From a virus (Duplodnaviria; Heunggongvirae; Uroviricota; Caudoviricetes): a DNA stretch of 64,000 nucleotides. Numbering within the stretch: the first letter of the stretch is position 1; the number at the start of each line of letters is the position of its first letter. The stretch lies in IMG/VR virus record IMGVR_UViG_3300029705_000018, one strand, 5' to 3'. The notes under the pieces were generated by a model. That model saw only the letters and a program-made list of their open reading frames with translations. It was not told where the DNA came from and searched no databases. The position numbers and the translations under genes are program-made. Below, piece after piece: positions 30,947 through 63,507 of this stretch.

Positions 30947-30969
30947 TTTGGATAGAAAGGAGAGCAACA

Positions 30970-37440: not shown

Positions 37441-37652
37441 TGACTAAAGATAGAAAATACAGATACCTTGGCCGCAATGGTATTTTAGATACTAAGGTCC
37501 TTCTAGATGGTATCAATCATATCAATATCGTAACTATCAATGCTGATCCCGGCAAGATTTTAACTAATGGTGAGCGTACTCAGTACAGCGTCACTGTTGA
37601 AGAGGCCGAGGAACATAAGTGGAGAGAAATTACGGACAATACCAAAAAATAA
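37440..37652 (+). CDS. Small hypothetical protein of about 70 aa
   Basis: ATG overlaps the upstream TAA (TAATG). ORF-track entry 37413..37652. Confidence 0.45.
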   Translation: MTKDRKYRYLGRNGILDTKVLLDGINHINIVTINADPGKILTNGERTQYSVTVEEAEEHKWREITDNTKK

Positions 37653-37728
37653 GGTTATTTGATTTTTCAGTTCTAGGGAAGGGAAATTCCTTCCCTAGAA
37701 CAATATTATAAAGAAAGGAAGATATAAC

Positions 37729-39741: not shown

Positions 39742-39759
39742 TAAAGGAGGTCAATAATT

Positions 39760-48027: not shown

Positions 48028-48335
48028 TTATAAATGGCGTGCGCTGGCGGGTCCGGTTGGTCTCGCCAGCCCATCCAATGCTACTTACGCCTTGGAGAAC
48101 TCACGCTCTTGGAGTTTGTGATAAAGTCACATAGACTATATGTATAGACAAGACTCTTTCCCCTCAACAACTAAAAGAAGTCTTATGTCATGAATTAGTT
48201 CATGCTTTTATGTTTAGCTATGCTGTGGATTTATCATATGATGAAGAGGAAATGGTAGCAGAGCTTATGACTGAATATGGAGAAGATATATTAGAACGGA
48301 CAAACGCGATTTATAATGGTATAAAAATGAAATAA
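48024..48335 (+). CDS. HExxH zincin-like small protein of 103 aa (SprT/ImmA-IrrE-like motif ...ICIDKTLSPQQLKEVLCHELVHAF...) with 1 in-frame TAG at 48132. Not present in the ORF track.
   Basis: ATG 48024 overlaps the upstream TGA (ATGA). Frame 0 is continuous to the TAA at 48333-35 and was hand-translated codon by codon. Confidence 0.5.
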
Positions 48336-48380
48336 GGGTCGATTATGAATAATCATAATCGACCCCTTATTTTTTTTTGG
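48331..48380. terminator. Bidirectional terminator at the junction where the plus and minus modules converge
   Basis: aataagggtcgattatga...tcataatcgaccccttatt hairpin flanked by a T-run on plus and an A-run on minus. Confidence 0.65.
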
Positions 48381-48381
48381 T

Positions 48382-48840
48382 TTAATCAACAACGTCGTCA
48401 TTATCAACTTTTAAGTCTAAAGCCATAGCCTTATCATAATAGATTTTAGCTTGACCGTTGCCACCCAAACCAGTATATAATTTATAGAACTCGGTTAACT
48501 GTTCCATCTGTGCAGGAGTAATATATCCCTGAGCTAAGAATCCTTTGCATAATTGTACTAAGCGGAAACGATAAGAAGCAATAATCAGATTCATATGAGT
48601 CTTCTCGATGTTCTCAGTTTCTCTGATATATTTTCTTAGTTCCTCTAATTCCTGATATACTGGTTCTAAATGGATCTCAATGGTGTCCTCGACATGTTGT
48701 CTCTCTTGGGCGGCGGCTAATTCTCTAGCGTTTCTTAATTCACGATTCAATTCACGAGTTTTGAACTTAGCATAACCAATTACACCGGCACTGATAAGAG
48801 CAAACAAAATCTCCATACCCCACTCAGCTAATAATTCCAT
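48382..48840 (-). CDS. Hypothetical protein of 152 aa with an N-terminal transmembrane helix followed by coiled coil
   Basis: Intact ORF. TAA stop. RBS AAAGGGGG. Confidence 0.6.
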   Translation of the reverse strand: MELLAEWGMEILFALISAGVIGYAKFKTRELNRELRNARELAAAQERQHVEDTIEIHLEPVYQELEELRKYIRETENIEKTHMNLIIASYRFRLVQLCKGFLAQGYITPAQMEQLTEFYKLYTGLGGNGQAKIYYDKAMALDLKVDNDDVVD

Positions 48841-48904: not shown

Positions 48905-49390
48905 TTAGGACCAATCGAATACTTCGACCTTATTTTTGGTATAATGAGCGCCAATACAAATAGCATCACATTCATCCTGTGTTGGTTTTACATTATAGGT
49001 TTTTACAACCCAATCTTGTGCGGCTTTCTTCTAGGCTGGACGATCTTTTCCCTTGATACCAAGAGAAGATTTCCAGACGGTAGAAAGAACGGCGGTTCGA
49101 GGCATTTTCATTTCAACAAATAATTCATGTAAAACGCCAAATACCTCAGCCAATGCTTTAAAGGTGGCTACATTATTGACAACATTATTTTGAAGTTGAA
49201 TATCTTCAAAGACGACTTCGTCAATATCAAACTTCTCAATTAAACCAATAACTTCCTTGCGAATAAAGTGAAGTCTATCTCCAACATCGGTTTGAGTTGC
49301 GGAGAACTTGCCATAATTGTAAAGTTCACCATCATCAAATACTGCCCAACCAGTCACGCGACTGGCCTGGTCCAATGCAAGAGTTCTCAC
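48905..49390 (-). CDS. ruvC: RuvC-like Holliday junction resolvase of 161 aa. The C-terminal catalytic motif (DECDAICIGAHY) is reached only by reading the TAG at 49031-33 as sense.
   Basis: N-terminus MRTLALDQASRVTGWAVFD matches RuvC motif I. After the TAG the frame runs 42 more codons to the TAA at 48905-07. Those codons resemble RuvC ...QADAADALAIAITH. GTG start overlaps the dUTPase TGA. Confidence 0.8.
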
Positions 49391-49926
49391 TTAGAAGTAG
49401 AACCGAATCCGCCAGTGCGTTCGCCCATTACCACATCATCAGAAGTGATACCATATGGAAGAATGGTTGCCTGACCGATTGCGTCACCTTTCTTAATTTG
49501 AATATTAAATGGAGATAGATTGTAAATCTGGAAGAAAATCTCACCTTCATTATCGGGGTTATTGTAGTAATCAGCATCGATAATACCAATGCCGTTACCC
49601 AACATCAACCAATATTTCAAGGGAGAGGAACTGCGGACACTTAGTTGTAACCAAGAGCCAGGATCTAACTTACACTTCATTCCAGTAGAAACAAGAGTTG
49701 GCTTGAAACCAATCTTCTTAGTAAAGTCAGCCATTTGTTCCAGACTTACATATTCATCGACCTCAACAGGCCATAATAATTTTGCTTCTTCACACATCAA
49801 AGGAAGAGAAGGAATTACATAATCCTCTGCGGCGACCATGTCATATCCTGCGGATTGACTGGTTTTACGGACCGGCATAGCTAAGTCCGCGTCCGCATAC
49901 TTAGAAACTTTTTCAAAATGTGCCAT
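49387..49926 (-). CDS. dut: dUTPase / dCTP deaminase family protein, 179 aa
   Basis: Motifs SAGYDM, RSS, GIIDADY and GERTGGFGST. TGA stop. Confidence 0.85.
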   Translation of the reverse strand: MAHFEKVSKYADADLAMPVRKTSQSAGYDMVAAEDYVIPSLPLMCEEAKLLWPVEVDEYVSLEQMADFTKKIGFKPTLVSTGMKCKLDPGSWLQLSVRSSSPLKYWLMLGNGIGIIDADYYNNPDNEGEIFFQIYNLSPFNIQIKKGDAIGQATILPYGITSDDVVMGERTGGFGSTSK

Positions 49927-49931: not shown

Positions 49932-50174
49932 TTAACCCCTTTCATAAGTGACGGTATAAACATCCTCGGGGTCTTTCTCATTAGTGAAAATCTTAGTAGC
50001 AGTAACTACTTGATATTCTTCAATAACTTCACCCTTAGCCTTAATTTGCTTAGTCTTATAACTAAAAGCAGTTAGGTCAAAAGTGGGATCATCTAGTAAT
50101 TGTTCATGAAGAGCCTCAACATCGGCAATGGTGGGAACTCTATAAGTATCAACAGCTTTTAATAAATATTTCAT
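49932..50174 (-). CDS. Hypothetical protein, 80 aa
   Basis: Intact ORF. ATGA overlap with the upstream gene. Confidence 0.55.
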   Translation of the reverse strand: MKYLLKAVDTYRVPTIADVEALHEQLLDDPTFDLTAFSYKTKQIKAKGEVIEEYQVVTATKIFTNEKDPEDVYTVTYERG

Positions 50175-50449
50175 CTTATTACCTCTACAACAATATTATT
50201 TCGACTATAATTCATTTTTGAGTAAGCAAGAATATCTTCGGAAACAGCATTACCGAAAACACTATTGCCACTCAAATATACATGATCAATTTTCTTTTCA
50301 TTACTGATTGTACTGATTACCTCTGGAAGTCCTTCCATGGTGGTAATTGCTACGCACTCTTTATCTCCAGTATCTGTATCAACGATATAGACTCTCTGGT
50401 GCAAATCGAACATATGTAATTCACAATAAATTCTTTTCATTTCATTCAC
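50171..50449 (-). CDS. Hypothetical protein, 92 aa
   Basis: Intact ORF. GTG start. TGA stop. Confidence 0.5.
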   Translation of the reverse strand: MNEMKRIYCELHMFDLHQRVYIVDTDTGDKECVAITTMEGLPEVISTISNEKKIDHVYLSGNSVFGNAVSEDILAYSKMNYSRNNIVVEVIR

Positions 50450-50939
50450 CTACCTGAACTAAGCCACTATCATAAGGGAACAGATATAGACAGGTTGGGC
50501 CGTCATCTGTTTCCACCCAAATCTCCACGGCAGTGCCAGGTTCGTCGGGGTCAATGGCTTTAATTTTTCCCACATTTCGCAGACAATCAAGAACCTCTTG
50601 TGCGAAATACTGAGGCTCAATTAGTTTGAATACAGTAAAATAAGAAATCTCTTTACCGTAAAGCATATAGTATTTATTACGATACATTTCATGTAATGCT
50701 TCAATGGTTTGGATTGCCTTATTTAAATCAGCCAACTCAGGAAGCTGGGCGATAATTTGTTTATTCAAATCATATAGACCTAAATTCAAGCCTGCGCCAT
50801 CAGTTCTCATTGTAACCCAATGACCGTCATGATATACGCGAATTTCACCTGAAATGGAATCTTGAATTACTTCTCCTTCCATTGGTTCAAAATTGACTTG
50901 TGAAAGGTCCATTTTCTTGACAGTGAGTTTACTTCCCAT
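50442..50939 (-). CDS. Hypothetical protein, 165 aa
   Basis: Intact ORF downstream of the consensus promoter at 50970..50998. Confidence 0.6.
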   Translation of the reverse strand: MGSKLTVKKMDLSQVNFEPMEGEVIQDSISGEIRVYHDGHWVTMRTDGAGLNLGLYDLNKQIIAQLPELADLNKAIQTIEALHEMYRNKYYMLYGKEISYFTVFKLIEPQYFAQEVLDCLRNVGKIKAIDPDEPGTAVEIWVETDDGPTCLYLFPYDSGLVQVGE

Positions 50940-50969
50940 ATCAAGACCTCCTTTTACTCTTTATACTAA

Positions 50970-50998
50970 ATTATATCAATTTTTTTTATGTAAGTCAA
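50970..50998 (-). promoter_or_regulatory. Consensus promoter TTGACT-N17-TATAAT (minus strand). Identical 30-mer to the copy at 58562.
   Basis: Reverse complement reads TTGACT tacataaaaaaaattga TATAAT. Overlaps the nrdG stop and precedes gene 50442..50939. Confidence 0.7.
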
Positions 50999-51458
50999 TT
51001 ATACGCTGGTTGCGAGAGCCTCTCATTTCTAGAGTCAAATCTCGCTCTGCTTCAATATATGGACCGTCGATTAGGACGTCCGCTAATTCCAGACATGATT
51101 TGACATGAGGGTCGCCAGACCGCAATAATTCTTCATAAGTGTAGCCGCTCCAAATATATATCTTCACTTCTGGAAGCTTATGTCTTACCTCTTGGAGAAT
51201 CAAATTTACCAGAAAAGCATTTGCTTCACACAAAGGTTCACCGCCCATAATACATAAATTACGCTTGATTCCTTGTGCGGTTAGTCCTTCTAAAATCTTA
51301 TGTAAAGTATTATTTGTAAACTCCTTACCTCCATCAAAGGCCCAGGTGCCAGGATTATGACACCCAGGACAATGATGAGGACAGCCTTGTGTAAAAAAGC
51401 TTACACATAAACCTGGAGCAGCGGTGATATCATTTAGTATCAATCCACTGTATCTCAT
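50976..51458 (-). CDS. nrdG: Anaerobic ribonucleotide reductase activating protein (radical SAM)
   Basis: CxxxCxxC cluster GCPHHCPGCHNP. Length 160 aa. Adjacent to nrdD. Confidence 0.9.
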   Translation of the reverse strand: MRYSGLILNDITAAPGLCVSFFTQGCPHHCPGCHNPGTWAFDGGKEFTNNTLHKILEGLTAQGIKRNLCIMGGEPLCEANAFLVNLILQEVRHKLPEVKIYIWSGYTYEELLRSGDPHVKSCLELADVLIDGPYIEAERDLTLEMRGSRNQRIIDLHKKN

Positions 51459-51505
51459 AGTTATCTCTCTTTCTTATAGCGTAGCTAAGTTGTAGTTAGC
51501 AACAG

Positions 51506-53725
51506 TTAGGAAAATTGAGAATGCTTGACGCGGTGTTCAACCTCTGCTTGTTTTCCGTTGTTGAAATGGCGATAGTCAGTAGTCAAATAACCAGTTACAC
51601 GACGAAGCTGTTGAATATTCTGGCTTCCGCACTCGGGACAAGCATCATTGAACTCGCCTTGATAACCACAATCTAAGCAAGAGTCGATTGGGAAGTTGAA
51701 AGCTAAATAAGGGATATCTAGCTCTTTGAAAGCATAATCAATAATCTGCTCGATAGCCTTAGTATTCTTTACGAAAGTAGAATCCAATTCTACATAAGTG
51801 ATACAACCACCAGTAGGATACTTACAGAAAGGAGCTTCAATAGCTAACTTCTCAAAGATACCAACTTCCTGCCAAACAGGAACATGGTGACTGTTAGTCA
51901 AGAACTCCTTATCAGTAACATTAGGAATGATTCCATATTGCTTACGTAAGCCCTTCAGCGCGGTATGGCATAGACCTTCCGCAGGAGTAGCATAACAAGA
52001 GAAATTCAAATCGTGACGCTCGGAAGCTTCCTTAGCGTATTCATTGATTCTCTTGACAACCTTCAAAGCGAAAGCATGAACTTCGGAGTCTTCTGCGTGA
52101 TTCTTACCAAACAGAGCCTGGCACATTTCAGCAATACCGATATAACCCATAGCTAAAGTGCCGTGCTTCAATGCTTCATAGTTAGACATTTTGCACTTCT
52201 GAGCATCCTTCATAGTACCATTTTGATACATAAATGGAGCGGCCTCAGGTGGCTGATTAACCATAATATCAAAGCGCTCTAATAAACCTTGTTCACATAG
52301 CATCAATAAATCCTCAAACGCAGACCAGAAGCCGTCTAAGTCTGGGGTCTCACGCTCACCAAGGCAGATACCATATTCGATACCGAGCTTTGGCAAAATC
52401 ATAGTATTAGGAACAAGGTTACCACGTCCGACGCGATTATAAGATTTGCTGTGTCTGTCATAACCCAACATTGTGCGGCAACCCATTGTTGCGAAATATG
52501 TGTCAATATTATTTGGGTCTTCATGTGCTTCGGAATAATCACAATTGACAAAGTTGGGATAAATGCGCTTACTTAAAGATTCGATAGCCAACTGCTTCAA
52601 ATCATAGTTAGGATCTTCGGGATTAGCATTACAACCCTGCTTATATTGGAAAATACTAATTGGGAAAATAGGAGTTAGATGATGCTTACCAATACCAGAC
52701 AAGGAAGCCTCTAACATCTTGCGAGATACGAAACGACCTTCAACAGATTCGTCTCTACCAAAATTAATAGAAGTGAAAGGAACCTGAGAACCTGCGCGAG
52801 ACTCTAATGTATTCAAGTTGTGATACATAGCTTCGGCAGCCTGGGTGCCTTCGCGCTCAACCTGGCGGACCGCAAACTTATGTGCAGGATCATCTGCATA
52901 TGCGGGATTACCCATATCCAAATCGGGGAACTTGGCATGAATAACTAATTCAGCATCCTCTTCACTCATCTCTTGGACGTCAGTATAATACTGCATTAGC
53001 TTCTTCTTATAACTCTTCTTTACGAAAGGAGCCAAGTCATAATCCAAGTGAACAGTACCAACACCACCGAACTGAACTTGAGACTGGCACTGGTCAATAA
53101 CAGCAGTTTGTTGACAAGCACTACTGAAATTAGAAGGTGGTCTTACATCACCATTACGGGTTATAAAGCCATCGGTAAATAGCTTCTTCATATCAACGAA
53201 CAAGCAGTTATGCTGGCCGATATTAGTCTTTTCCATATCATGTTGATATAACAACATATTCTTGTGAGCATTTGAGACTTCTGGAGACAAAGTATAATCG
53301 AGGGCAATAATCTTCTGAATATCTGCGGAAGCCTCTTTCTCTCTACCAGAGAAGCTCTTTTCGTCAACATTAGCATTAGCATTTTCTACTGCAGTAGCTT
53401 CAATGCGCTTCATTACTGCTTTGACTAACTTGCTGCGACGAGTGCGCTCTTTACTACGCTGGTCGCGATATAGGATATATTCTTTTGCTACTTCTGGATA
53501 CTCGCTCTTCATCAAGTATCCTTCAACTAAATCTTGGATTTGCTCAACGCTCATATCAACATTGCGCTGACCAATTAAATCGGCAATCTCTTCGGCAGTT
53601 TCAGTCTCATAGACTGCGCCGTAAGTGCTAATCATAGCTTTGTTGATAGCTTGAACAATCTTATCGGGATTGAATAGAACTCTTGTTCCATCTCGTTTAA
53701 TTACATACATATATATTACCTCCAA
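51506..53725 (-). CDS. nrdD: Class III anaerobic ribonucleoside-triphosphate reductase
   Basis: N-terminal ATP-cone (VIKRDGTRVLFNPDKIVQAINKA). C-terminal Zn ribbon CLDCGYQGEFNDACPECG. Glycine-radical motif RRVTGYL. 739 aa. Confidence 0.9.
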   Translation of the reverse strand: MEVIYMYVIKRDGTRVLFNPDKIVQAINKAMISTYGAVYETETAEEIADLIGQRNVDMSVEQIQDLVEGYLMKSEYPEVAKEYILYRDQRSKERTRRSKLVKAVMKRIEATAVENANANVDEKSFSGREKEASADIQKIIALDYTLSPEVSNAHKNMLLYQHDMEKTNIGQHNCLFVDMKKLFTDGFITRNGDVRPPSNFSSACQQTAVIDQCQSQVQFGGVGTVHLDYDLAPFVKKSYKKKLMQYYTDVQEMSEEDAELVIHAKFPDLDMGNPAYADDPAHKFAVRQVEREGTQAAEAMYHNLNTLESRAGSQVPFTSINFGRDESVEGRFVSRKMLEASLSGIGKHHLTPIFPISIFQYKQGCNANPEDPNYDLKQLAIESLSKRIYPNFVNCDYSEAHEDPNNIDTYFATMGCRTMLGYDRHSKSYNRVGRGNLVPNTMILPKLGIEYGICLGERETPDLDGFWSAFEDLLMLCEQGLLERFDIMVNQPPEAAPFMYQNGTMKDAQKCKMSNYEALKHGTLAMGYIGIAEMCQALFGKNHAEDSEVHAFALKVVKRINEYAKEASERHDLNFSCYATPAEGLCHTALKGLRKQYGIIPNVTDKEFLTNSHHVPVWQEVGIFEKLAIEAPFCKYPTGGCITYVELDSTFVKNTKAIEQIIDYAFKELDIPYLAFNFPIDSCLDCGYQGEFNDACPECGSQNIQQLRRVTGYLTTDYRHFNNGKQAEVEHRVKHSQFS

Positions 53726-53729
53726 TTAA

Positions 53730-53760
53730 AAACCCTACATCTTGTGTAGAGGGCAAAATT
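53730..53760 (-). terminator. Rho-independent terminator (minus strand) after the kinase gene
   Basis: Reverse complement reads gccctctacacaagatgtaggg followed by tttttaatt. Confidence 0.55.
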
Positions 53761-53797
53761 TCTCTACTAAATATGGGTTTATGGATTGATCACTTAA

Positions 53798-54364
53798 TCA
53801 ATCTCGTCCTTGGGCGAATGTGGTCTCGGTCTGGTACACAATCTCTTCAGGGCCAGTCCAACCGTCCAATTCAGTGGCGTTTCTAATTTCAAAAAATGGG
53901 AAATCAATCTCGCCAAAATCAGAATAGTCAGCTAAGAAGCGACGACAAACTTCCTTGACGTCAGGATCTTCTTCTCGATTCAACTGACGCATTAGACGCA
54001 ACTTATCGGGCGTCCGCAAACGAATAGCTAGAACTTCACAATCCCCACGAGCCAAGAGATCATGGATGCCTTGAGGATTGAAAACTCCAACATTGATATT
54101 ATCTTCAACCACAGACTCGGTACTTGTGCCGTAATACCAATTATTGAACATTACACATTCAAGCATTTGGTCATTGTTAATTTTTTCTTTGAACTCATCC
54201 ATTGTGTGATAAAAATAATTCACACCATGCTGTTCACCCTGTCTCATAGGACGAGTAGTACAGCTAATAATTTTATGCCAGTCAGGTCTCATAGCGAGGA
54301 CCTTATTCAACATAAAGTCCTTGCCGGAGCCTGCCTCGCCAAACAAAGCAACGATTTTATACAT
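53798..54364 (-). CDS. Guanylate-kinase-like (d)NMP kinase of about 188 aa. The start is assumed to be the internal Met just before the P-loop.
   Basis: P-loop GEAGSGKD. TTRPMRQGEQHGVNYFY matches the guanylate kinase TTRxxRxGExxGxxYxF motif. ORF-track entry 53798..54400. Confidence 0.65.
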   Translation of the reverse strand: MYKIVALFGEAGSGKDFMLNKVLAMRPDWHKIISCTTRPMRQGEQHGVNYFYHTMDEFKEKINNDQMLECVMFNNWYYGTSTESVVEDNINVGVFNPQGIHDLLARGDCEVLAIRLRTPDKLRLMRQLNREEDPDVKEVCRRFLADYSDFGEIDFPFFEIRNATELDGWTGPEEIVYQTETTFAQGRD

Positions 54365-54365
54365 T

Positions 54366-54560
54366 TTATTCATCCTCGAACTCATATTCAATACTGCCAT
54401 TTTTAGTAGTGCTTGTTGTAGTCGTTCCGCAATTCAAACACTCATAGCAGTGCTGTGCAGGATAAGTACAGAGTGTATGAGTGCAACGCATGGGCTTACC
54501 GCACTCTTCACAGACAATCTGCACAACATACATAGCTTTTACTTTTCTTTTTTGGATCAT
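54366..54560 (-). CDS. Small Zn-ribbon protein, 64 aa
   Basis: Two CxxC pairs (CEECG...CYECLNCG). Confidence 0.5.
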   Translation of the reverse strand: MIQKRKVKAMYVVQIVCEECGKPMRCTHTLCTYPAQHCYECLNCGTTTTSTTKNGSIEYEFEDE

Positions 54561-57500
54561 TTATTCGTCTCCTTGATAACGAGCATCTAATAGTTTCAAA
54601 TCACCATTAGGATAAATTTTATCAATTTTATATAACTGGTGTCCACCAGTTGAAGCATACTTCTTAGAAATGAAATCATCACCAGAACGAATACCAGTTA
54701 CCACAATCATATTACCTCGATTGAACCAGGACTTTTCCATGATCTTCTTAGTTCCATCGGGTTGACGAGCAGAAATCTGCTTATCAAATAATGTGAAATA
54801 TTCTTTTCTAAATTTCACATTTACAACACCTGTGTTAGTCAAAATAGTAACTGTACTCTTAGTTTTATTCTTCGCGATACAAGTTCCGCAAATACGATTC
54901 AAGTGAAAGATATGGATTTCTTTGTCACCCTTTTTAAAAGTCTTTTCAATTACGGGGTCTTCTGGCAAAGCAAAGAAATCAACAAAGCCATACTTGTCAT
55001 TATTTACATGAGCCAATTCGTGCTCATGATAATAGAAGCACAATACTTCCATCTCCCATGCGGAGATACTGCCCTGGGCATATTTCTCCCAGTCTTCCAT
55101 GAAGATTTTTGTATTCAATGCTTCAAGGATTTCTTCCTTATCAGTAGCAATCCAATTTCTGAAAATGTTCATATACTTCTGATATACATTATCCCAAGTC
55201 TTGACTTTGATAAACCAAGCGAGATTATCGCTTTCCATCAAGTCTTCACATTCAATTTCATGTAAGAATGAAATTGCTCGTGGATCAAGACTATACATAT
55301 CTTTGTAAGCACATTCATCAGCCTTTGTAATTGCTTTTAGATAACGATTGAACTCATAAACTCTACGAGCCATAATTTGCTCTTCTGTGGATTCAGGTAA
55401 TAAACCATGCTTGATAAGACCACCCATATTCTGTAAAGTCAAACGGCTCTTCTTATCACAAGTCTCCCACAGATACCATGCCATTACGAAACGACGATCT
55501 TCCATATCATCAAAGGCACCGCCCTTGATTAGAGAAATCATTGCTTGCTTACCGGGCTTTACTTTCTGTAAGAAATCCTTGGGAGAAGCATATGGTCTAT
55601 TTGCGATGATTGCGGCGATAACATCATCGCCGACATTTAGCATACCTTTCAAACCAAACAGAATACGATTATTTTCCACGTCGGGAGCAAATCCAAATTG
55701 AGATTTATTGATATCAACCAGACTCACCTTGATGCCAGCCGCACGAATATCTCCAATTGCCTTAGCAATCTTACCATAGTCAGTGCTTGCGGTCTTACGA
55801 ATCTTACCAGACCGATCGGGCAGATCCTGGAAAGTCACGCCTTCGCTTAGGTCTTGTCCTTCTGGCTCATAAATATCAACAATCTCTTCTTCACTATTAT
55901 CTTCCAAAGAACCACTATTGACAATCAGACAAGCTGTATTCCAGTAGATGGGATTGAAATTCATGGCAAGATAAATAGATTGCATACCAACGAATGAATA
56001 AGGTAATGAGTGATTCAAGCTAAATGCGTATCCTAACTGAGGGGCAACCGCATTTTCCCAGAAGTAATTCGCAGAATTGACATGGTCAAATCTACTATAT
56101 ACATCCTCGCGCAACTGCGGAATCTTACTCATTTGCTTTTTACCGACAATCTTTCTTGCGGTATTTGCTTCACCTAATGTGAAGCCAGCGACATCCATCA
56201 ACAGTTCCATCATTTGCTCCTGGATTGCACAACAACCCCAATATTGATCACAATGCTTATGCATCAACGCAATCATATTAGAATCAAGTCCTGCTTGAAC
56301 CATTTCTCGATGAAACTCAGTCAAACCTTTCCGTTGAATACGGACGTATCTGTCCTGCTGAGACTCTTTGCCTTTTTCGCTCATCAGTCTCATCATGGCG
56401 TTTGCCGCAGTCATCTCCATAGGATTTTGAGGCTTCAACTTTTTCGCAATGGCTAGACCGACACCTGTGCTGAACTGAAACACGTCCAGAACATCACCGG
56501 CCGCAAGGTGATCCCAAATGCGCTGGTCAGTTGTATCCATTACTTCTGGATGGATATATTTATTATATAATTCACGCAAACTCAAATCTGGAATTACTTT
56601 ATCTGCTACCAAAAGTTCAAAACATTTAATAATCTTATCAGAAATTTCAGTAACCAGGAAGTCGTACTTAGTATCACCTGCGGCCTCAGCTTTATGTAGG
56701 TCATAACAGGTAATCAAGTCACCACTAGGAGTTCTCATAAAAGCTGCTGTATCAAATGGATCATCACCATATAAGATAACACCAGATGCGTGAGAAGAAC
56801 ATTTATTTACAAGTCCATCAATGGACTTGATAATATTTAGCAAACCAGGATACTGATTTACTTCTCGAATGAAAGCAACAACAGGCTTTCTGTCTTTACT
56901 TTCATTACCATTAACAACATCATCAATAGACCACAAAAAACCACGTTCCTGTGGGATTAGAGATGACATATATTGGGCTTGGTCGACATCAATTCCATCA
57001 GGAAAATCTTCACTTCGGTATCCTCGGCAGGCGGTAAGGATGGCTGATTTAGTTCCTTCTGTGCCGAAGGTTCCAACTTGGATAAGTCCAAGTTCACCTC
57101 TTTCTTTCCGAATTCTTCGAAAGATTTCTGGTCGCTTTGAGGGAGCGAGGTCAATATCAATATCGGGCAACTCAGCTCTTTCTTTGTTAAGAAAGCGCCA
57201 ATATGGTAACTTCCATCGTACTGGATCAAGTTGGGTGATACCCAAGAGATAGTTAGAGAGGAATCCAGTCGCTGAACCTCGTCCTGGACCAACGATACTG
57301 CCGCACTCCCAGAAGAGGTCAATATAGTGTTTGAATGTGTTGAAATAAGCGAAGAGACAATCTTCAAGCTTTCTTCCAATGTCGTCAATTACGTCTGCCT
57401 CCGTTTCAAGTCTATCCCAATATTCTCTCTTATCAATGAAGCCTTTTTCGTGCATACTCTTCAAGCATTCACCCAACCAATATCTCTCTTGATCATTACC

Positions 57501-58526
57501 CGCACAAATAATGCGATCTAAAGTGGGCCACTGATAAGAATCCCATTGAATATCTTCTGGCAATAAATCCCAAAGATTATCATAAAATGGAACTTGAACT
57601 TTAGGAATAATCTGCTTACGCTCCAAAGAGTAATCTTCAATTTTACTCTGAGCTTCTAAGGTCGCCGCAAAAATATCATCAATATCAACATCACTAAATG
57701 ACTTTGACAATAATGTTCGACACTCTTCTGGACTCATTAAATATGCGAACTCATAGAAGTCATCAACTTCTCGTTCACCATCTTTTGAGTTCAAATAAGA
57801 TTTATGGACAAATCTATCTTCTTTTGTCAAATAATGAGAGTCAGTACCAACAACCATATTGATACCATATGCTTTCGCAATTCTCATTAGTTTGCGGTTG
57901 ACCTCACATTGTTGACTTGCGCTTGAGGGAGCGCACTCAATATAAAAATCATCACCAAACAAGCCTCGACAATAATCAATAAAATCGCAAATCTGGTCAT
58001 AATAAACCTTTGCGTTTACCATATCATTTACTCGTTCAGCCTGCGACATATTCCAGGCGGCGGTAGATAATTCACCACCAAGACAAGCAGAGGTCGCAAT
58101 TACATGGCCACGATATTTGCTAATGATTTTAGTCATTTCTTCTTTCGTGATTGGCACACGCTTCATACCTCTATCAGTATAAGCGTAATACCATGCAATA
58201 GAACTCAATTCACGAAGTGCCTTATGTCCGATGGCATCCTTCGCAACTAAAATAAAGTGATAATATTTTATACCACTTTCTCGTTTATCTACTAAATAAA
58301 CCTCATTGCCTAAAGCGATTTTGAAGTCGGGATGGTTCTTTTTAACTTCCTTCGCATATTGATTTACTTCCATATGACCACTAATACATTCATGGTCAGT
58401 AATCGCAATGCCAGAAAGACCCAACTCAATCGCTTTGTCAATGAGGTCTTTTGGTCTATTGATACAATCGAGCAAGCGGATATTAGAATACATAGTATGA
58501 TTGTGAATATTGAAGTAAGTTGTCAT
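54561..58526 (-). CDS. dnaE: DNA polymerase III alpha (DnaE-type, family C) with an N-terminal PHP domain, 1,321 aa
   Basis: PHP motifs HNHTMYS...ITDHE. Palm motif LPDIDIDL. Uninterrupted ORF. A consensus promoter lies upstream at 58562..58590. Confidence 0.8.
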   Translation of the reverse strand: MTTYFNIHNHTMYSNIRLLDCINRPKDLIDKAIELGLSGIAITDHECISGHMEVNQYAKEVKKNHPDFKIALGNEVYLVDKRESGIKYYHFILVAKDAIGHKALRELSSIAWYYAYTDRGMKRVPITKEEMTKIISKYRGHVIATSACLGGELSTAAWNMSQAERVNDMVNAKVYYDQICDFIDYCRGLFGDDFYIECAPSSASQQCEVNRKLMRIAKAYGINMVVGTDSHYLTKEDRFVHKSYLNSKDGEREVDDFYEFAYLMSPEECRTLLSKSFSDVDIDDIFAATLEAQSKIEDYSLERKQIIPKVQVPFYDNLWDLLPEDIQWDSYQWPTLDRIICAGNDQERYWLGECLKSMHEKGFIDKREYWDRLETEADVIDDIGRKLEDCLFAYFNTFKHYIDLFWECGSIVGPGRGSATGFLSNYLLGITQLDPVRWKLPYWRFLNKERAELPDIDIDLAPSKRPEIFRRIRKERGELGLIQVGTFGTEGTKSAILTACRGYRSEDFPDGIDVDQAQYMSSLIPQERGFLWSIDDVVNGNESKDRKPVVAFIREVNQYPGLLNIIKSIDGLVNKCSSHASGVILYGDDPFDTAAFMRTPSGDLITCYDLHKAEAAGDTKYDFLVTEISDKIIKCFELLVADKVIPDLSLRELYNKYIHPEVMDTTDQRIWDHLAAGDVLDVFQFSTGVGLAIAKKLKPQNPMEMTAANAMMRLMSEKGKESQQDRYVRIQRKGLTEFHREMVQAGLDSNMIALMHKHCDQYWGCCAIQEQMMELLMDVAGFTLGEANTARKIVGKKQMSKIPQLREDVYSRFDHVNSANYFWENAVAPQLGYAFSLNHSLPYSFVGMQSIYLAMNFNPIYWNTACLIVNSGSLEDNSEEEIVDIYEPEGQDLSEGVTFQDLPDRSGKIRKTASTDYGKIAKAIGDIRAAGIKVSLVDINKSQFGFAPDVENNRILFGLKGMLNVGDDVIAAIIANRPYASPKDFLQKVKPGKQAMISLIKGGAFDDMEDRRFVMAWYLWETCDKKSRLTLQNMGGLIKHGLLPESTEEQIMARRVYEFNRYLKAITKADECAYKDMYSLDPRAISFLHEIECEDLMESDNLAWFIKVKTWDNVYQKYMNIFRNWIATDKEEILEALNTKIFMEDWEKYAQGSISAWEMEVLCFYYHEHELAHVNNDKYGFVDFFALPEDPVIEKTFKKGDKEIHIFHLNRICGTCIAKNKTKSTVTILTNTGVVNVKFRKEYFTLFDKQISARQPDGTKKIMEKSWFNRGNMIVVTGIRSGDDFISKKYASTGGHQLYKIDKIYPNGDLKLLDARYQGDE

Positions 58527-58561
58527 TCTATTATCCTCTTTCTTTTTACTTATTATACTAT

Positions 58562-58590
58562 ATTATATCAATTTTTTTTATGTAAGTCAA
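58562..58590 (-). promoter_or_regulatory. Consensus promoter TTGACT-N17-TATAAT (minus strand) upstream of the polymerase gene
   Basis: Reverse complement reads TTGACT tacataaaaaaaattga TATAAT. RBS AAGAGGA before the pol ATG at 58526. Confidence 0.7.
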
Positions 58591-59779
58591 TCTTTGGTGA
58601 CAATCACCAATTTCTCTGCCGCACGAGTGGCCGCAGTGTATAACCAACGAGCATGATCAACGGGCTGGAAGGGGAACTTTTCTTCCAGAACCAAGACGTT
58701 ATCCCATTCAGAACCCTGCGCTTTATGACAGGTAATGGCATATCCATAAGTAAATTCCTTTGGCACAACATCGCCAATACGATTTTTTAGCTTATTCAGC
58801 TTATACTTATCACGCCATTCAAGCTCGCTTTCGCCGCCCTTCATAATGCGAGGGTCCATATTGATATGACCATAATTCTCACCTAAGTCAGATTCAAATA
58901 CACCAGTAAGGATATTGATCTTACCCTTCTCATAAGCGTAAAACGGGACATTGATATGACTATACTTGGGATCATGTAATGTTCCAATAGTGCCATTTAC
59001 CAATGGGTCGCCGTTAGTCAAATTACCCCAGTCCCAGTAATTCCGCAGACAAATAACTTTATCTCCTTCTTCTGGCTCAGGTCCAAAACCTCGTTGCTGA
59101 CGCATGAAATCATTCATACTGTGCCGTTGTAGATTAGTCGCAACAAGAACCTGGTCTGCCCAATCAAGCATTCCGGTATTGAGCGCGCTGGCTGGATAAA
59201 TTTGAACTTGGTCATTCTTTATATATTCCAAAGGCTTCTGGTCTCGAATATCCATAGTCAAACGGATAATACCAGATTCAGTAGCCTGTCTCATAATTTC
59301 ATCAAGGAAGATATGAGGATGGTCAAGCAAATGATTATCCTCGTCTTTCTCAATGGGTGGCAACTGGAACGGGTCGCCAAGACAAATTACATATACATTA
59401 TGGGAGAATAATTTATCCATAATACTCTTGGGCGCCATGGACACCTCATCAACCACAACGACTGTATATTCCAAAGATTTCTTTGGGATTCTAGTAAATC
59501 CACCGCCTGGACGAGGCACGCTATCATAAAGCAGACGATGTAGAGTCATTGCGTTCTTATTGCCCTTCTTAGCTAGAACCTGGGCGGCCTTGCCTGTAAA
59601 AGTAGCAAAGCAAACTTTATTATGTTCTACATCTAATGCTTCAATGATAAATTTTACCAGAGTGCTCTTTCCTGTACCTGCCTTTAGGCGTAGCCAGCAA
59701 TCACAGTGTACTTTTCATGTGCTCTGTGTCTGGCTACGGCAATTTTCAAACCTTCTTCTTGCTTTCTTGTAAGAATCAC
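58587..59779 (-). CDS. Dda/RecD-like SF1 DNA helicase, interrupted. A 31-aa N-terminal ORF (59684..59779, GTG start) ends at a TAA. The Walker A motif onward (AGTGKST...DEVSM...GDPFQLPP...HKAQGSEWD) continues in the -1 frame, which has no start codon of its own.
   Basis: Hand translation around 59680-59720. The frames are consistent with one missing nucleotide near 59684-59690. Confidence 0.55.
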
Positions 59780-60336
59780 AGTTCTACTTCCTCTCTTTCT
59801 TCAATATTCAAATCTTCAATATTCCATAGATTATCATGTAGTTCTTTATGACAATTAGAACAAATTAAAATACATTTTTTACTTTCTTCTACTGCTTCTA
59901 ATAAGTGAAAATGGTCATTGCTAATTGTAAAATCTTTTTTAGAGGGGTCAATGTGATGAAATTCTAATGCTTTTATACATCTATCATATCCACATCTTAT
60001 ACATTTTCCACCACGAGATTCTTTTATTTTAGCTAAAAACATTCCTCTCGTTAATTGAACTCCATTTGGCATACAGTTATAACAACAGGTTCTTTGATGA
60101 GCCGTAGAAGTTAAAGGATAAAATTCTTTTCCACAAATGGGACAAATTTTTGGTTTTCCTTTATAAGAAGTATCTTTTTGATTCTTTTCTTTATTGGCGT
60201 ATTTTTCTCTGCGCGAAGCGTTTTGACATTCTATACTACAGTATTTTTTAGTAGAACGGATTGCCTCAAATTCATTTCCACACATAACACATTTATTTAT
60301 CATATATTTTCTCCTTTTTTGAAATATTTCTTTCAT
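59776..60336 (-). CDS. HNH endonuclease with N-terminal Zn-ribbon repeats, 186 aa
   Basis: C-terminal CIRCGYDR...LEFHHIDP...N...CSNCHKELH HNH motif. Several CxxC pairs. Confidence 0.75.
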   Translation of the reverse strand: MKEIFQKRRKYMINKCVMCGNEFEAIRSTKKYCSIECQNASRREKYANKEKNQKDTSYKGKPKICPICGKEFYPLTSTAHQRTCCYNCMPNGVQLTRGMFLAKIKESRGGKCIRCGYDRCIKALEFHHIDPSKKDFTISNDHFHLLEAVEESKKCILICSNCHKELHDNLWNIEDLNIEEREEVEL

Positions 60337-60404
60337 TATATTTCAAAAATAAGACAAGTAAATTCGTCAGCTTTGTCCGGAGTTTTACACAACGAACTTA
60401 CCTA

Positions 60405-60422
60405 ACCAAAGTTGCACAAGCA
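60405..60422. promoter_or_regulatory. Perfect 18-bp palindrome AAGTTGC-ACAA-GCAACTT between the HNH gene and the upstream gene. Operator-like, or a short terminator stem.
   Basis: Read directly from the sequence. Coordinates are approximate to within 2 nt. Confidence 0.35.
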
Positions 60423-60427
60423 ACTTA

Positions 60428-60661
60428 TCAATCATGCTCTCCTATTGCTTCATCTAAAATCTGAATAAAACGCATCATATCTCGTTCATGCCTACGTATG
60501 ACAGCCTCATGTGCTTTTGGTTCAGAGAACCCTTTACACTTCATCAATTCAATTTTGTCGTGTTCAAAGGCTTTTGCCTGGTATTCCTTAAAACGGAATA
60601 CCAGACTATCAAACATATAACCCTTTAAATGCTTATTATCACTAAAATGTACTTTTTCCAT
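60428..60661 (-). CDS. Hypothetical protein of 77 aa. An internal Met start is used because a consensus promoter sits immediately upstream and the longer ORF overlaps the next gene.
   Basis: ORF track gives 60428..60757. Promoter at 60681..60709 with ATG 60659-61 downstream. Confidence 0.45.
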   Translation of the reverse strand: MEKVHFSDNKHLKGYMFDSLVFRFKEYQAKAFEHDKIELMKCKGFSEPKAHEAVIRRHERDMMRFIQILDEAIGEHD

Positions 60662-60680
60662 ACTAATACCTTTTATTTTT

Positions 60681-60709
60681 ATTATACCAAAATATTTCTT
60701 ATAAATCAA
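60681..60709 (-). promoter_or_regulatory. Near-consensus promoter TTGATT-N17-TATAAT (minus strand)
   Basis: Reverse complement reads TTGATT tataagaaatattttgg TATAAT. Confidence 0.55.
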
Positions 60710-61028
60710 TAAGGAACATATTGTTGTCCAATTTAAGAAAATCTTCATCCCACTCAATTTGGGGAAAAATTTCTAAATCGCTTTTTTGTTTTGGGTTTTC
60801 GGCTGGCGCGTCTGGCACCGGTCGGATGGCGTCTTGGAGAGCAATTATATTGGCAATAGCATTGCTTATCGCTCTTTCAAGTTCATCGACTCTACATTCA
60901 AGCACTCGAAAAGAATCACTCAATGTAGTTGCAGTACTAGCCATATCACAAGTTAGCATATCAACTCTATCTTGGATTAGATCAACCATGTACTTTGCGC
61001 CATCAGCAGTTAATACTTGTAATGCCAT
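60699..61028 (-). CDS. Hypothetical protein, 109 aa
   Basis: Intact ORF. TAA stop. Confidence 0.55.
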   Translation of the reverse strand: MALQVLTADGAKYMVDLIQDRVDMLTCDMASTATTLSDSFRVLECRVDELERAISNAIANIIALQDAIRPVPDAPAENPKQKSDLEIFPQIEWDEDFLKLDNNMFLIDL

Positions 61029-61037
61029 ATATCCTCC

Positions 61038-62831
61038 TTAGAAGTAATACTTCTGTTCACCAACAATTTCATAATCCTCAATAATAATTTGAGGAGAAAC
61101 ACTTCCGTTCCAGACATTGCGTTCACATTTGCCAACTACATTGATGGTGATACAACCCATCTCACTCTTCAACTTCTCATATTCTTCTTGAGAAGATTTG
61201 AATTTGATAAGACTTGTGCCATTTGGTAAAGTGATCTTCAAAGTAGGACTCTTATCGGGAGACATGAGCACAATATTACCGCTTGATACATTGATATGTT
61301 CAATAGCAACAAATGGTTCATCAACGCCTTGACCCCAAAGAGATTTCAAACCAGCAATCTCAATGATATCACTACCTCTGAAATCTGCTCCACTGAAAAT
61401 GAAATCAACTTTATAACAAGGAGTAAAATCAAACTCAGCCAAAGCCTTATTTGAATACTCCACAAATTCAGAAAATACTTTATCGTAAATGCCAACGCCG
61501 AGCGCATTAGCATGGCCTTCCGCATACATTACCAGGCCACTATTTTGTAGGAACTGGCGCAAATTATCAAACTTAGATTTATCATAACCACGACCAGAGC
61601 CTTCCCAGCTTTGCTCCTGTAAAGTCATAATCTTCTTACCATTGGTATCAAATATGTCTTGCTCAGTAATTGTCTTATTCAGTAGTAAAACTGGACGCTG
61701 GTATTTAGCCATAAGTTGGTTGGCGATAAGACCGGTTAGATTGCGATCCGCAGAAAAAGAATCCAGCTTGATTGCCAGAATTTTATTCTTCAATAAATCT
61801 TTTTGCTTGATAATAGCTTCAATAGTCTCAAGCGCAGCATCTCTTGCCTTAGTCTGACGATTTTTGATATTCGTACAATTTCGGCACGCCTGCTCTACGC
61901 GAGTTTCTTGCTGACCCTTACAGCCTCTCTTGGTTGAAGGAATTAGCTCATATCCACGATAATCTAACATCGATTCAAACATCAATAACTTTTCCTCTTG
62001 GCTACCCATTCGGATAGTAGCATTGACATATGGAGCAACATAGAACGCAATACCAATAGGAGTGATACCGTCCTTTAGCGAATACTGTTGCTTATCAACC
62101 ATGCCTTTGAAATAAGGATTTCTGATATTTTGTAAGCCACGATGAATTAAATGCTTGGTTTCAAAATCTCTCAAATCCATCATATCGGCAATCATGCCAA
62201 GAGCAACCAAATCAAGAAACTGATCGGCATAATCAACATTCATAAGTTCGTCAATATAAGAACAAAACTTATAAACCATGCCGACACCAGAAAGAGATTT
62301 AGTTGGATAATCACATAGCTGGTTATTGATAACGCAAGCATATTCGCTAACTTTTTCAGCTTCGTGGTGGTCAATAACCAGAACATCTACTCCACGCTCA
62401 TGGAGCTTTTTATGTTCTTCATAATCATTTGAACTTGAGTCTGGCGCAATTACCAACTTTACATCAGCTGGAATTGTATTGAGAATAATACCATGTTCTT
62501 TACCATTATGGATGCGGTAATAAACATTATTCTGAACATATCCAGGAAATAGGCAGTTCAAATAATTGATTAGTGTTGCCGCTGAAGTGTAACCATCACA
62601 GTCGCTATCAATTTGGATTAGGATCTTGTGTCCTTGCGAGATGTGATAAATCAACAGCTTTACACCCTACGCGATATTCGCAATAAGGGAGGGTGCTAAA
62701 ATGTCTTCATCAGTTGTATTTAGATAATGCTCAATTTTATCGGGTTCAATGCCACGATTTACGAGTACCTGTTCGACCGCAGATAAAACATCCTTGTGCG
62801 GGATGCGAGGTACTATTAGTTGATATTCCAA
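61038..62831 (-). CDS. recJ: RecJ-like DHH-family single-strand DNA exonuclease of about 597 aa. The N-terminal 54 aa are reached only by reading the TAG at 62667-69 as sense.
   Basis: Motifs DSDCDG, VIAPDSS and VIDHH. The extension LSAVEQVLVNRGIEPDKIEHYL...ILAPSLIANIA-Q-GVKLLIYH matches the RecJ N-terminus. TTG start after RBS AAAGGAGG. Confidence 0.75.
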
Positions 62832-62857
62832 AAGAAATCAACCTCCTTTCATAATCC

Positions 62858-63178
62858 TTACCACTCCTTAGGATAAAAAAATTCGTAGTGACGAGGACCA
62901 AAAGGACAGCAAAGGGTTCGTAAAATTACAAGATAACAAAATTCCTGAGATACACGAGCATCAATCAAAGCATAATTGGCACGAATACCTCTACCGCTTT
63001 CATTTGCGGGAGCTACTCTCCAATAATCTCCATTTTCAAATTCAATAAATGAATTACTACGGGAATATATTTCTCTAACTGGATTGATACCTTTCCAAAT
63101 ATATTCATCTCGGACGCATTTTAATTGTCTTACACCATCGCCTGCTCTATCACAGGACCAAATAACACCTTTTATCAT
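62858..63178 (-). CDS. Hypothetical protein of about 106 aa (ATG start with ATGA overlap; the ORF track extends to 63202)
   Basis: Intact ORF. SD-like GAGGAAAAAAGA before the ATG. Confidence 0.45.
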   Translation of the reverse strand: MIKGVIWSCDRAGDGVRQLKCVRDEYIWKGINPVREIYSRSNSFIEFENGDYWRVAPANESGRGIRANYALIDARVSQEFCYLVILRTLCCPFGPRHYEFFYPKEW

Positions 63179-63507
63179 TCTTTTTTCCTCGTTCCTGCCC
63201 AACGGCGCTTACCAATCTCATGTCCTTCTGGACACATGGTGGCCGCTTCAATATGTATTTCTTTCTCATACTCATAGGGTTCTAGGTAACCCATCAATGG
63301 ATTGATGCAAGTTGTCTTTTCTTCTTCAAAAAACTTTGTATTACAATCCTTTTTATAGTACCAGCGACCGCATCCACTACACCAGTTACCCTGCGCCTGA
63401 ACATCAGTTTGAAGTTGAAGTAGCGCATCAAATGAATTAGCAATTACATTCATTCGCTCTTGAATGTCGTCGGGACCATTTTTGAATACTTCTTCTAAAA
63501 TTAACAT
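63175..63507 (-). CDS. Hypothetical Cys-containing protein, 110 aa
   Basis: Intact ORF. ATG overlaps the upstream TAA. Confidence 0.5.
   Translation of the reverse strand: MLILEEVFKNGPDDIQERMNVIANSFDALLQLQTDVQAQGNWCSGCGRWYYKKDCNTKFFEEEKTTCINPLMGYLEPYEYEKEIHIEAATMCPEGHEIGKRRWAGTRKKE

What the first reader, a model, noticed from the sequence alone, without database searches (positions are those of the whole stretch)
48905..49390. RuvC resolvase needs amber read-through to include its catalytic C-terminus
The 119-aa ORF stops at TAG 49031-33. The same frame continues 42 codons to a TAA (QKKAAQDWVVKTYNVKPTQDECDAICIGAHYTKNKVEVFDWS). This region reproduces the conserved RuvC C-terminal acidic and His segment (DAADALAIAITH-like). 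Most replication genes are TAG-free (pol, nrdD, nrdG, dut). A single TAG placed before essential residues would make resolvase activity conditional on suppressor availability. This is a possible timing switch for junction resolution and packaging.
Basis: partly seen in the sequence, partly recalled or inferred. Interest (0 to 1): 0.7.

Follow-up and report, generated by a model that had tools for sequence, protein, structure and literature searches.

The report
RuvC resolvase with recoded TAG (Gln) codon
The "stop" inside this phage's RuvC resolvase gene is a glutamine codon, because the phage reads TAG as sense; across related phages RuvC is recoded as heavily as late genes, although it sits in an otherwise standard-code replication operon.

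Summary
A minus-strand RuvC gene (49390→48905) has one in-frame TAG at codon 120, and two of its four catalytic acids (D139, D142) lie after that TAG.

It is not an isolated read-through. The whole window is TAG-recoded in the manner of genetic code 15. There are 80 in-frame TAGs in the late genes, including 36 in a 3129-aa tape measure.

TAG120 aligns with a Gln that is conserved in 40 of 43 other relatives. It is polymorphic with CAG among same-species strains whose RuvC proteins are otherwise identical.

The position is not special. Relatives carry TAG at 22 different RuvC codons, including codon 8.

The gene as a whole does stand out. In 24 TAG-recoded relatives, 32% of RuvC Gln codons are TAG, against 4.6% in the neighbouring replication genes. 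In 10 TGA-recoded relatives, 73% of RuvC Trp codons are TGA, against 0.8%.

By codon usage RuvC therefore belongs to the late, alternative-code compartment, even though its start overlaps the stop of the TAG-free dUTPase gene. That fits the published code-switch timing model. This is a new member of a known kind.

No suppressor tRNA was found in the sequence I could reach.

The parts
48905..49390 (-). Full RuvC-like Holliday junction resolvase gene, 161 codons plus TAA. It starts at GTG and codon 120 is TAG, read as Gln.
   Evidence: The model of a 94%-identical homolog has TM 0.82 to E. coli RuvC 1hjr, and the top 14 PDB hits are all RuvC.
49031..49033 (-). In-frame TAG (codon 120), which aligns with a conserved Gln.
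   Evidence: Among the other unique relatives the column is Q in 40 of 43. Standard-code Enterococcus phage VRE9_3 has Q here. Same-species strains L311, L313, L314 and L316 have CAG; L312 and L315 have TAG.
48908..49030 (-). Post-TAG segment (codons 121-161). It carries the catalytic D139 (48974-48976) and D142 (48965-48967) and the last two helices of the fold.
   Evidence: It is under purifying selection: against L003 (TAG retained) there are 14 synonymous and 2 non-synonymous differences.
49205..49372 (-). Pre-TAG catalytic residues D7 (49370-49372) and E62 (49205-49207).
   Evidence: These columns are invariant in A2 and align with E. coli RuvC D7 and E66.
49387..49926 (-). dUTPase gene with no TAG. 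Its TGA stop overlaps the RuvC GTG start (GTGA), so the two genes lie in one operon and are probably translationally coupled.
   Evidence: No terminator-like site lies between the two genes.
48382..48840 (-). 152-aa gene of unknown function, the last gene of the minus-strand operon. It is TAG-free here but carries TAG in 7 of 9 TAG-recoded relatives.
48334..48367 (.). Bidirectional terminator-like hairpin between the convergent replication (-) and late (+) modules.
49932..63977 (-). Rest of the replication and nucleotide-metabolism module: NrdG, NrdD, GK-like kinase, Pol III alpha, helicase, RecJ-like and others. No unambiguous in-frame TAG. The two TAGs found lie in doubtful N-terminal extensions at 60428-60844 and 61038-62831.
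   Evidence: The module has 183 CAA/CAG codons, and RuvC holds its only clear TAG.
1882..11271 (+). Tape measure gene, 3129 codons with 36 in-frame TAGs. This is the clearest proof that the phage reads TAG as sense.
   Evidence: The public collection lists the same-species copy as a 3129-aa product with a PhageMin_Tail hit.

Best explanation
The window comes from a large (about 183 kb) SPbeta-like gut phage in which TAG is reassigned from stop to glutamine, in the manner of genetic code 15.

Shown:
- Codon 120 of RuvC is one of these sense TAGs.
- The gene encodes a normal 161-residue RuvC-fold resolvase with catalytic residues D7, E62, D139 and D142.

Inferred:
- While the infected cell still terminates at UAG, ribosomes stop after residue 119. 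That product lacks two catalytic acids and the last two helices, so it should be inactive.
- Once UAG is decoded as Gln, full-length resolvase is made and can resolve branched replication and recombination intermediates before packaging.

Shown across relatives:
- In both TAG-recoded and TGA-recoded relatives, RuvC uses recoded stop codons as often as late genes do.
- The genes upstream on the same strand almost never use them.
- The code boundary therefore falls inside the operon, between dUTPase and RuvC.

Whether this gating is an adaptation is also inferred. The alternative is that TAG is simply tolerated in a gene needed only late.

The specific position, codon 120, has no special role.
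For: Genome-wide recoding:
- Treating TAG as sense fuses same-frame ORF fragments into a 3129-codon gene with 36 TAGs and an 1861-codon gene with 6.
- The public collection lists the same genes as products of 3129 and 1834 aa.
- Plus-strand genes hold 80 TAG against 493 CAA/CAG. Minus-strand genes hold at most 3 against 183.

TAG means Gln:
- Most RuvC TAGs among relatives fall in conserved Gln columns: codon 8 (34 of 34 others are Q), 65, 67, 120 (40 of 43 Q) and 125. The background Q frequency is 4.9%.
- Codon 120 is CAG or TAG among same-species strains that are otherwise identical at the protein level.

The post-TAG region is translated:
- Synonymous and non-synonymous differences there are 14 and 2 against L003.
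- D139 and D142 are invariant.

RuvC identity.

Preferential recoding:
- TAG lineages: RuvC 68 of 215 Gln codons are TAG (0.316), and 22 of 24 loci carry at least one. The pooled replication genes have 80 of 1747 (0.046).
- Distinct recoded sites per 100 codons: RuvC 13.7 and holin 14.1, against dUTPase 3.4 and Pol III alpha 0.3.
- TGA lineages: RuvC 35 of 48 Trp codons are TGA (0.73), against 2 of 238 in the neighbours.
- Late-gene backgrounds are 0.277 (TAG) and 0.457 (TGA).

Operon context: the dUTPase stop and RuvC start overlap as GTGA, and the only terminator-like sites lie downstream at 48334-48367.

Published model: late and lysis genes are recoded, replication genes variably so, and a nuclease embedded in an early gene is preferentially recoded in Agate phages.
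Against: - No tRNA(CUA) or any other tRNA was found. I searched the window, about 10 kb beyond each end in same-species contigs, and 92.5 kb of a 132-kb relative. The decoder is therefore not identified.
- Four same-species strains have CAG at codon 120 and no TAG in RuvC. Relatives L008 and L013 also have none. Gating of RuvC is thus dispensable at short evolutionary range.
- The Fisher tests are not corrected for phylogeny.
- No expression or proteomic data are available, so the timing is inferred only.
- In TAG lineages the GK-like gene and p152 are also fairly TAG-rich, so RuvC is not unique there.
Confidence: 0.8

Rival explanations
1. Neutral synonymous drift. TAG120 is just one more Gln codon, and RuvC tolerates TAG or TGA because it is needed only when the suppressor is already active, or only in small amounts. 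On this view the recoding has no regulatory purpose. The decoding mechanism is the same as in the best explanation; only the claim of adaptive value differs.
For: Codon 120 is polymorphic, CAG or TAG, within one species. TAG positions are scattered over 22 codons. Two TAG-recoded relatives have no TAG in RuvC. RuvC's TAG fraction (0.316) is close to the late-gene background (0.277).
Against: The contrast with genes in the same operon is sharp in two independently recoded lineages. In TGA lineages RuvC (0.73) exceeds the late-gene background (0.457).
Confidence: 0.4
2. Dosage limiter rather than timer. Incomplete suppression at TAG or TGA keeps full-length resolvase, a potentially toxic nuclease, at low levels throughout the period in which it is translated.
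For: RuvC carries up to 6 TAGs or 4 TGAs in relatives, which would compound any inefficiency of suppression. That resolvases act catalytically and are harmful in excess is general knowledge and was not tested here.
Against: Abundant structural proteins such as the tape measure (36 TAGs) use the same codons, so suppression must be efficient once it is active.
Confidence: 0.15
3. Nonsense mutation. RuvC is a pseudogene in this strain, and the open frame downstream of the TAG is residual.
For: Closely related strains have CAG at this codon.
Against: - The same TAG persists in relatives with 93% and 77% protein identity, with purifying selection downstream of it.
- The genome uses TAG as sense in essential genes.
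- Identical TAG alleles occur in independent assemblies.
Confidence: 0.03
4. Classical programmed read-through of a leaky stop, of the Q-beta A1 or MuLV gag-pol type, giving two functional isoforms of 119 and 161 aa.
For: A single TAG in this gene separates an N-terminal part from a C-terminal part.
Against: - The position is not conserved. Fifteen unique relative sequences have TAG at codon 8, which leaves no meaningful short product.
- Some strains have CAG.
- TAG is sense genome-wide.
- The 119-aa product lacks two helices of the fold.
Confidence: 0.02

Closest known systems
TAG-to-Gln (genetic code 15) alternatively coded gut phages: crAss-like, Lak, the Agate/Jade/Sapphire clades and phAss-1 (10.1101/2021.08.26.457843; PMC9523058; PMC10607447)
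   Same: In-frame TAG is concentrated in structural and lysis genes and aligns with Gln in homologs, while replication genes are mostly standard-code. Close relatives use standard, TAG-recoded or TGA-recoded codes. The published model is a code switch that delays late proteins.
   Different: No suppressor tRNA was found in the sequence I could reach. The structural and replication genes are SPbeta-like. The gene that is preferentially recoded inside the replication operon is a RuvC resolvase. The recoding papers I read do not mention this: searches found no occurrence of 'RuvC', 'resolvase' or 'Holliday'.
Group I intron homing endonuclease embedded in an early gene of Agate phages, reported as preferentially TGA-recoded (10.1101/2021.08.26.457843)
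   Same: A nuclease gene lying within an otherwise standard-code early region carries an excess of recoded stops, which was interpreted as postponing nuclease production.
   Different: That case is a selfish homing endonuclease. RuvC is a core DNA-processing enzyme of the phage. Here the pattern recurs in both TAG-recoded and TGA-recoded sublineages.
Bacterial RuvC (E. coli 1hjr; T. thermophilus 4ld0) and Lactococcus phage bIL67 RuvC (4ktw)
   Same: Same length (about 160 aa) and the same RNase H-like fold (TM 0.82 to 1hjr). All four catalytic acids are conserved.
   Different: Sequence identity is only 15-20%. The single sequence scores just below the Pfam gathering threshold (20.7 against 22.2 bits). 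No RuvA or RuvB partner genes were seen in the window.
T4 endonuclease VII (gp49) and T7 endonuclease I (gp3), from general knowledge
   Same: These phage junction-resolving enzymes debranch DNA before packaging. This is the functional role proposed for RuvC here.
   Different: The folds are unrelated, and their timing is set by transcription rather than by codon reassignment. Nothing about them was tested here.

Membership tests
RuvC Holliday junction resolvase (PF02075) | RNase H-like RuvC fold | tested here: met
   The AlphaFold2 model of P0001 (94% identical to the window protein) has pLDDT 89. Foldseek against the PDB puts RuvC structures in the top 14 hits, with 1hjr at TM 0.82-0.83 and rmsd 2.6. 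The window protein itself, with Q at position 120, could not be submitted.
RuvC Holliday junction resolvase (PF02075) | Four catalytic acidic residues (E. coli D7, E66, D138, D141) | tested here: met
   D7, E62, D139 and D142 are invariant in alignment A2 and align with the E. coli residues.
RuvC Holliday junction resolvase (PF02075) | Significant sequence match to the family model | tested here: inconclusive
   The single sequence scores 20.7 bits against a Pfam cut-off of 22.2. However, PHROG RuvC and resolvase families match at E=2.6e-19 and 2.5e-18, the family profile matches 1hjr at E=4.5e-11, and many close homologs carry precomputed PF02075 hits.
RuvC Holliday junction resolvase (PF02075) | Dimeric, structure-specific cleavage of four-way junctions | not testable with these tools
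   This needs biochemistry.
Code-15 (TAG to Gln) alternatively coded phage | Many in-frame TAGs in conserved genes, which become intact when TAG is read as sense | tested here: met
   The tape measure (3129 aa, 36 TAGs) matches the product length listed for the same gene in the public collection.
Code-15 (TAG to Gln) alternatively coded phage | TAG positions correspond to Gln in homologs | tested here: met
   Shown for RuvC columns 8, 65, 67, 120 and 125, by the within-species CAG/TAG polymorphism, and by Q in standard-code Enterococcus phage VRE9_3. This was tested on RuvC only.
Code-15 (TAG to Gln) alternatively coded phage | Phage-encoded suppressor tRNA(CUA) or other code-change machinery | tested here: inconclusive
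   None was found in the window or in the reachable flanks and relatives. More distant relatives do carry tRNA(CUA), and TGA-recoded relatives carry tRNA(UCA) beside RuvC.
Code-15 (TAG to Gln) alternatively coded phage | Recoding biased towards late, structural and lysis genes | tested here: met
   Plus-strand genes have 80 TAG against 493 CAA/CAG. The replication module has at most 3 against 183.
Code-15 (TAG to Gln) alternatively coded phage | Direct detection of Gln at UAG in peptides | not testable with these tools
   Metaproteomics in the manner of PMC9523058 would be required.
Programmed stop-codon read-through (two-isoform type) | A conserved leaky stop at a fixed position, yielding a functional short product and an extended product | tested here: not met
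   The position varies over 22 codons, including codon 8, and the TAG is absent in some strains. The short product lacks two helices of the fold and two catalytic acids.

The most novel reading that the evidence does not exclude
In this clade of SPbeta-like gut phages, the RuvC resolvase is specifically gated by the genetic-code switch. It sits as a single late-coded gene at the end of a standard-code replication operon, and it was recoded independently with TAG in some lineages and TGA in others. Junction resolution would then be blocked until the code changes, protecting replication and recombination intermediates. Control would act gene by gene at the level of translation, not module by module at the level of transcription.
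Probability: 0.35. Interest if true: 0.6.

Novelty: new member of a known kind. Interest (0 to 1): 0.4.

Why it matters
For annotation, a standard-code gene caller truncates this resolvase to an inactive 119-aa stub or drops it. The public collection holds both 119-aa and 68-aa calls for it.

For biology, the published discussion of recoded phages centres on lysis and structural genes. A DNA-processing nuclease that is co-transcribed with standard-code genes, yet carries late-type recoding in two independent code lineages, would be a clean natural test of the idea that stop-codon reassignment times protein production. It is easy to test: swap TAG and CAG in a 161-codon gene.

The missing suppressor tRNA also leaves open how this lineage decodes TAG.

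Tried and rejected
- Suppressor tRNA search. ARAGORN and Rfam on the window found nothing. I then walked a 132-kb relative, IMGVR_UViG_3300045988_079139, using six of the eight viral-contig scans. This covered positions 1-17,271 and 51,671-126,912 and found no tRNA or Rfam hit. Same-species flanks beyond both window ends also had none. Only distant relatives showed tRNA(CUA).
- A scan with the window's first, TAG-containing protein found no relatives.
- The exact 156-aa product at the window's 3' end is not on record.
- The 'Q' at position 120 in database homologs first looked like independent evidence for Gln. I rejected it because those proteins had been translated with TAG read as Gln. I used DNA-level codons and standard-code homologs instead.
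- My first codon lookup was wrong for the TGA-recoded loci, because internal TGAs were dropped from the alignment. I redid it.
- The sigma-70 promoter scan around RuvC gave matches at chance level, so nothing can be said about a separate RuvC promoter.
- I considered pyrrolysine. ARAGORN labels any CUA tRNA 'Pyl', but the TAG columns are Gln, so I rejected it. I did not look for pyl genes.

Full report
**Observation**

On the minus strand an ORF starts at GTG 49390 and meets TAG at codon 120 (+ strand 49031-49033). It then continues in frame for 41 codons to TAA at 48905-48907.

The extension is homologous to the C-termini of RuvC proteins:
- PHROG resolvase scores rise from 45.2 to 67.8 bits and from 54.2 to 70.4 bits when it is added. 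The phrog_827 alignment then spans 2-158 of 161 profile positions.
- Standard-code phage resolvases, such as that of Enterococcus phage VRE9_3, align across the TAG in one piece.
- A profile of the family matches E. coli RuvC (1hjr) at E=4.5e-11 over residues 2-155. It also matches the P. aeruginosa, D. radiodurans and Lactococcus phage bIL67 RuvC structures.
- D7, E62, D139 and D142 are invariant. They align with the E. coli catalytic residues D7, E66, D138 and D141.
- An AlphaFold2 model of a 94%-identical homolog (pLDDT 89) superposes on 1hjr with TM 0.82, and the top 14 PDB hits are all RuvC.
- Helices 117-132 and 138-153 lie after the TAG. The 119-aa product would therefore lack two helices and two of the four catalytic acids.

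**Context: the whole phage reads TAG as sense**

- Reading TAG as sense joins runs of same-frame ORF fragments into a 3129-codon gene with 36 TAGs (1882-11271), an 1861-codon gene with 6, and others.
- The public collection lists the same-species copies as products of 3129 aa (with a PhageMin_Tail hit, so a tape measure) and 1834 aa.
- In the window, plus-strand (late) genes hold 80 TAG against 493 CAA/CAG.
- The 17 minus-strand genes hold 183 CAA/CAG. RuvC has their only unambiguous TAG. Two other TAGs sit in doubtful N-terminal extensions.
- The minus-strand genes include a RecJ-like protein, a helicase, Pol III alpha, a GK-like kinase, NrdD, NrdG and dUTPase.
- Genes flanking the window are SPbeta-like (YonD, YonB, YomW, YomV, YomU, YorF, YorH).
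- The window spans the ends of a 183,267-bp contig, which suggests a circularly permuted genome of about 183 kb.

**TAG means Gln**

The 161-aa database homologs show Q at position 120. Many of them were translated with TAG read as Gln, so this is circular. For example, a 77%-identical relative has TAG at codons 120 and 125. I used DNA instead.
- Among 49 unique RuvC sequences from 77 loci, TAG occurs mostly in conserved Gln columns: codon 8 (34 of 34 others are Q), 65, 67, 120 (40 of 43 Q) and 125. The background Q frequency is 4.9%.
- The closest standard-code homolog has Q at column 120.
- Same-species contigs give the strongest evidence. L311, L313, L314 and L316 have CAG at codon 120. The window, L312 and L315 have TAG. 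All other nucleotide differences in the gene are synonymous.
- Against a 93%-identical relative that retains the TAG, the post-TAG segment shows 14 synonymous and 2 non-synonymous differences. It is therefore translated and under selection.
- This excludes a pseudogene. It also excludes a fixed, designed read-through site.

**Is RuvC special?**

The position is not. Relatives carry TAG at 22 different RuvC codons, including codon 8.

The gene is. The RuvC-bearing clade contains standard-code, TAG-recoded and TGA-recoded members.

| Measure | RuvC | Neighbouring replication genes | Late genes |
|---|---|---|---|
| TAG lineages (24 loci): TAG share of Gln codons | 68/215 = 0.316 (22 of 24 loci have at least one) | 80/1747 = 0.046 pooled (Pol III alpha 0.007, NrdD 0.075, dUTPase 0.083, NrdG 0.106) | 0.277 |
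| TAG lineages: distinct recoded sites per 100 codons | 13.7 | dUTPase 3.4, NrdG 3.8, NrdD 4.5, Pol III alpha 0.3 | holin 14.1 |
| TGA lineages (10 loci): TGA share of Trp codons | 35/48 = 0.73 | 2/238 = 0.008 | 0.457 |

- The count of distinct sites is a rough lower bound on independent events.
- In the TGA lineages RuvC carries 2-4 in-frame TGAs, at conserved Trp positions such as W15 and W106.
- By codon usage RuvC therefore belongs to the late, alternative-code compartment in two different recodings.
- Physically it is in the replication operon. Its GTG start overlaps the dUTPase TGA stop (GTGA). The only terminator-like sites are a bidirectional hairpin downstream at 48334-48367.

**Mechanism**

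Shown: TAG120 is a sense (Gln) codon, the active enzyme requires decoding of it, and RuvC's recoding matches that of late genes.

Inferred: early in infection termination at UAG yields an inactive stub. After the code switch, full-length resolvase is made and debranches DNA before packaging. This is the published general model for recoded phages. The same paper reports a nuclease embedded in an early gene as preferentially recoded in Agate phages. The recoding papers I read do not mention RuvC or resolvases.

Caveats:
- Some strains and relatives have no recoded codon in RuvC, so gating is not obligatory.
- The statistics are not phylogenetically corrected.
- Neutral tolerance, or dosage limitation, would explain the data nearly as well.

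**Open problem**

No suppressor tRNA was found:
- in the window;
- within about 10 kb beyond either end in same-species contigs;
- in 92.5 kb of a 132-kb TAG-recoded relative.

TGA-recoded relatives carry tRNA(UCA) 1.4-1.9 kb downstream of RuvC. More distant relatives carry tRNA(CUA). About 100 kb of this phage's genome could not be reached.

**Verdict**

The TAG is ordinary code-15 usage, not a bespoke read-through switch. The family-level result is the part worth following up: RuvC is a late-coded gene embedded in a standard-code operon, in both the TAG and the TGA lineages. This is a new member of a known kind, of moderate interest.

Noticed in passing
window 25771-40407 (+): Six consecutive large plus-strand genes (495, 473, 709, 2156 [LRR_5-like], 670 and 215 aa) contain no TAG against 148 CAA/CAG, although TAG-rich late genes flank them. 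The same stretch differs in gene content between same-species contigs L311, L312 and L313. It may be an exchangeable receptor-binding cassette acquired from standard-code phages.
   Followed up: partly
window 58587-60427 (-): The helicase looks disrupted in this strain. L321 encodes an intact 394-aa Pif1-like helicase. In the window, residues 31-394 map to 59681-58590 at 100% identity, but residues 1-31 lie in another frame (59779-59687). A 650-bp strain-specific insert (59779-60427) carries a Cys-rich 186-aa ORF (59776-60336) with no Pfam hit.
   Followed up: partly
L058 11863-11934; L060 and L061 11879-11950; L072 11608-11702: TGA-recoded relatives encode a tRNA with anticodon UCA on the opposite strand, 1.4-1.9 kb downstream of RuvC, at the junction of the replication and late modules. 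TAG-recoded relatives have no tRNA at the equivalent place.
   Followed up: partly
whole window; L298, L008, L089, L162, L242, L267, L305; L311-L321: No tRNA gene or Rfam family of any kind was found in 64 kb of this TAG-recoded phage, in its near flanks, or in 92.5 kb of a 132-kb relative. How TAG is decoded in this lineage is unexplained.
   Followed up: yes
window 48334-48367: A 13-15-bp perfect hairpin with T-runs on both strands looks like a bidirectional terminator between the convergent late and replication modules.
   Followed up: no
window 53798-54400 (-) and its homologs in L001-L069: The guanylate-kinase-like gene is TAG-free in the window. In TAG-recoded relatives it is TAG-rich (20 of 86 Gln codons, up to 4 of 4 in L069), yet it has 0 of 11 TGA in TGA-recoded relatives. 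Unlike RuvC, it is not consistently recoded.
   Followed up: partly
L317 1-10000; L320 1-10000; window 1882-11271: The phage is SPbeta-like. YonD, YonB, YomW, YomV and YomU-tube homologs lie upstream of the window, and YorF, YorH, DnaB, ThyA, DHFR and LigA lie beyond its 3' end. The window bridges the two ends of the 183,267-bp contig ERZ27248436:k141_1895590, which implies a circularly permuted genome.
   Followed up: partly
window 48024-48335 (+): The last gene of the late strand (103 aa, one TAG) contains an HExxH-like motif (CHELVHA), which suggests a small metallopeptidase. This was not examined further.
   Followed up: no
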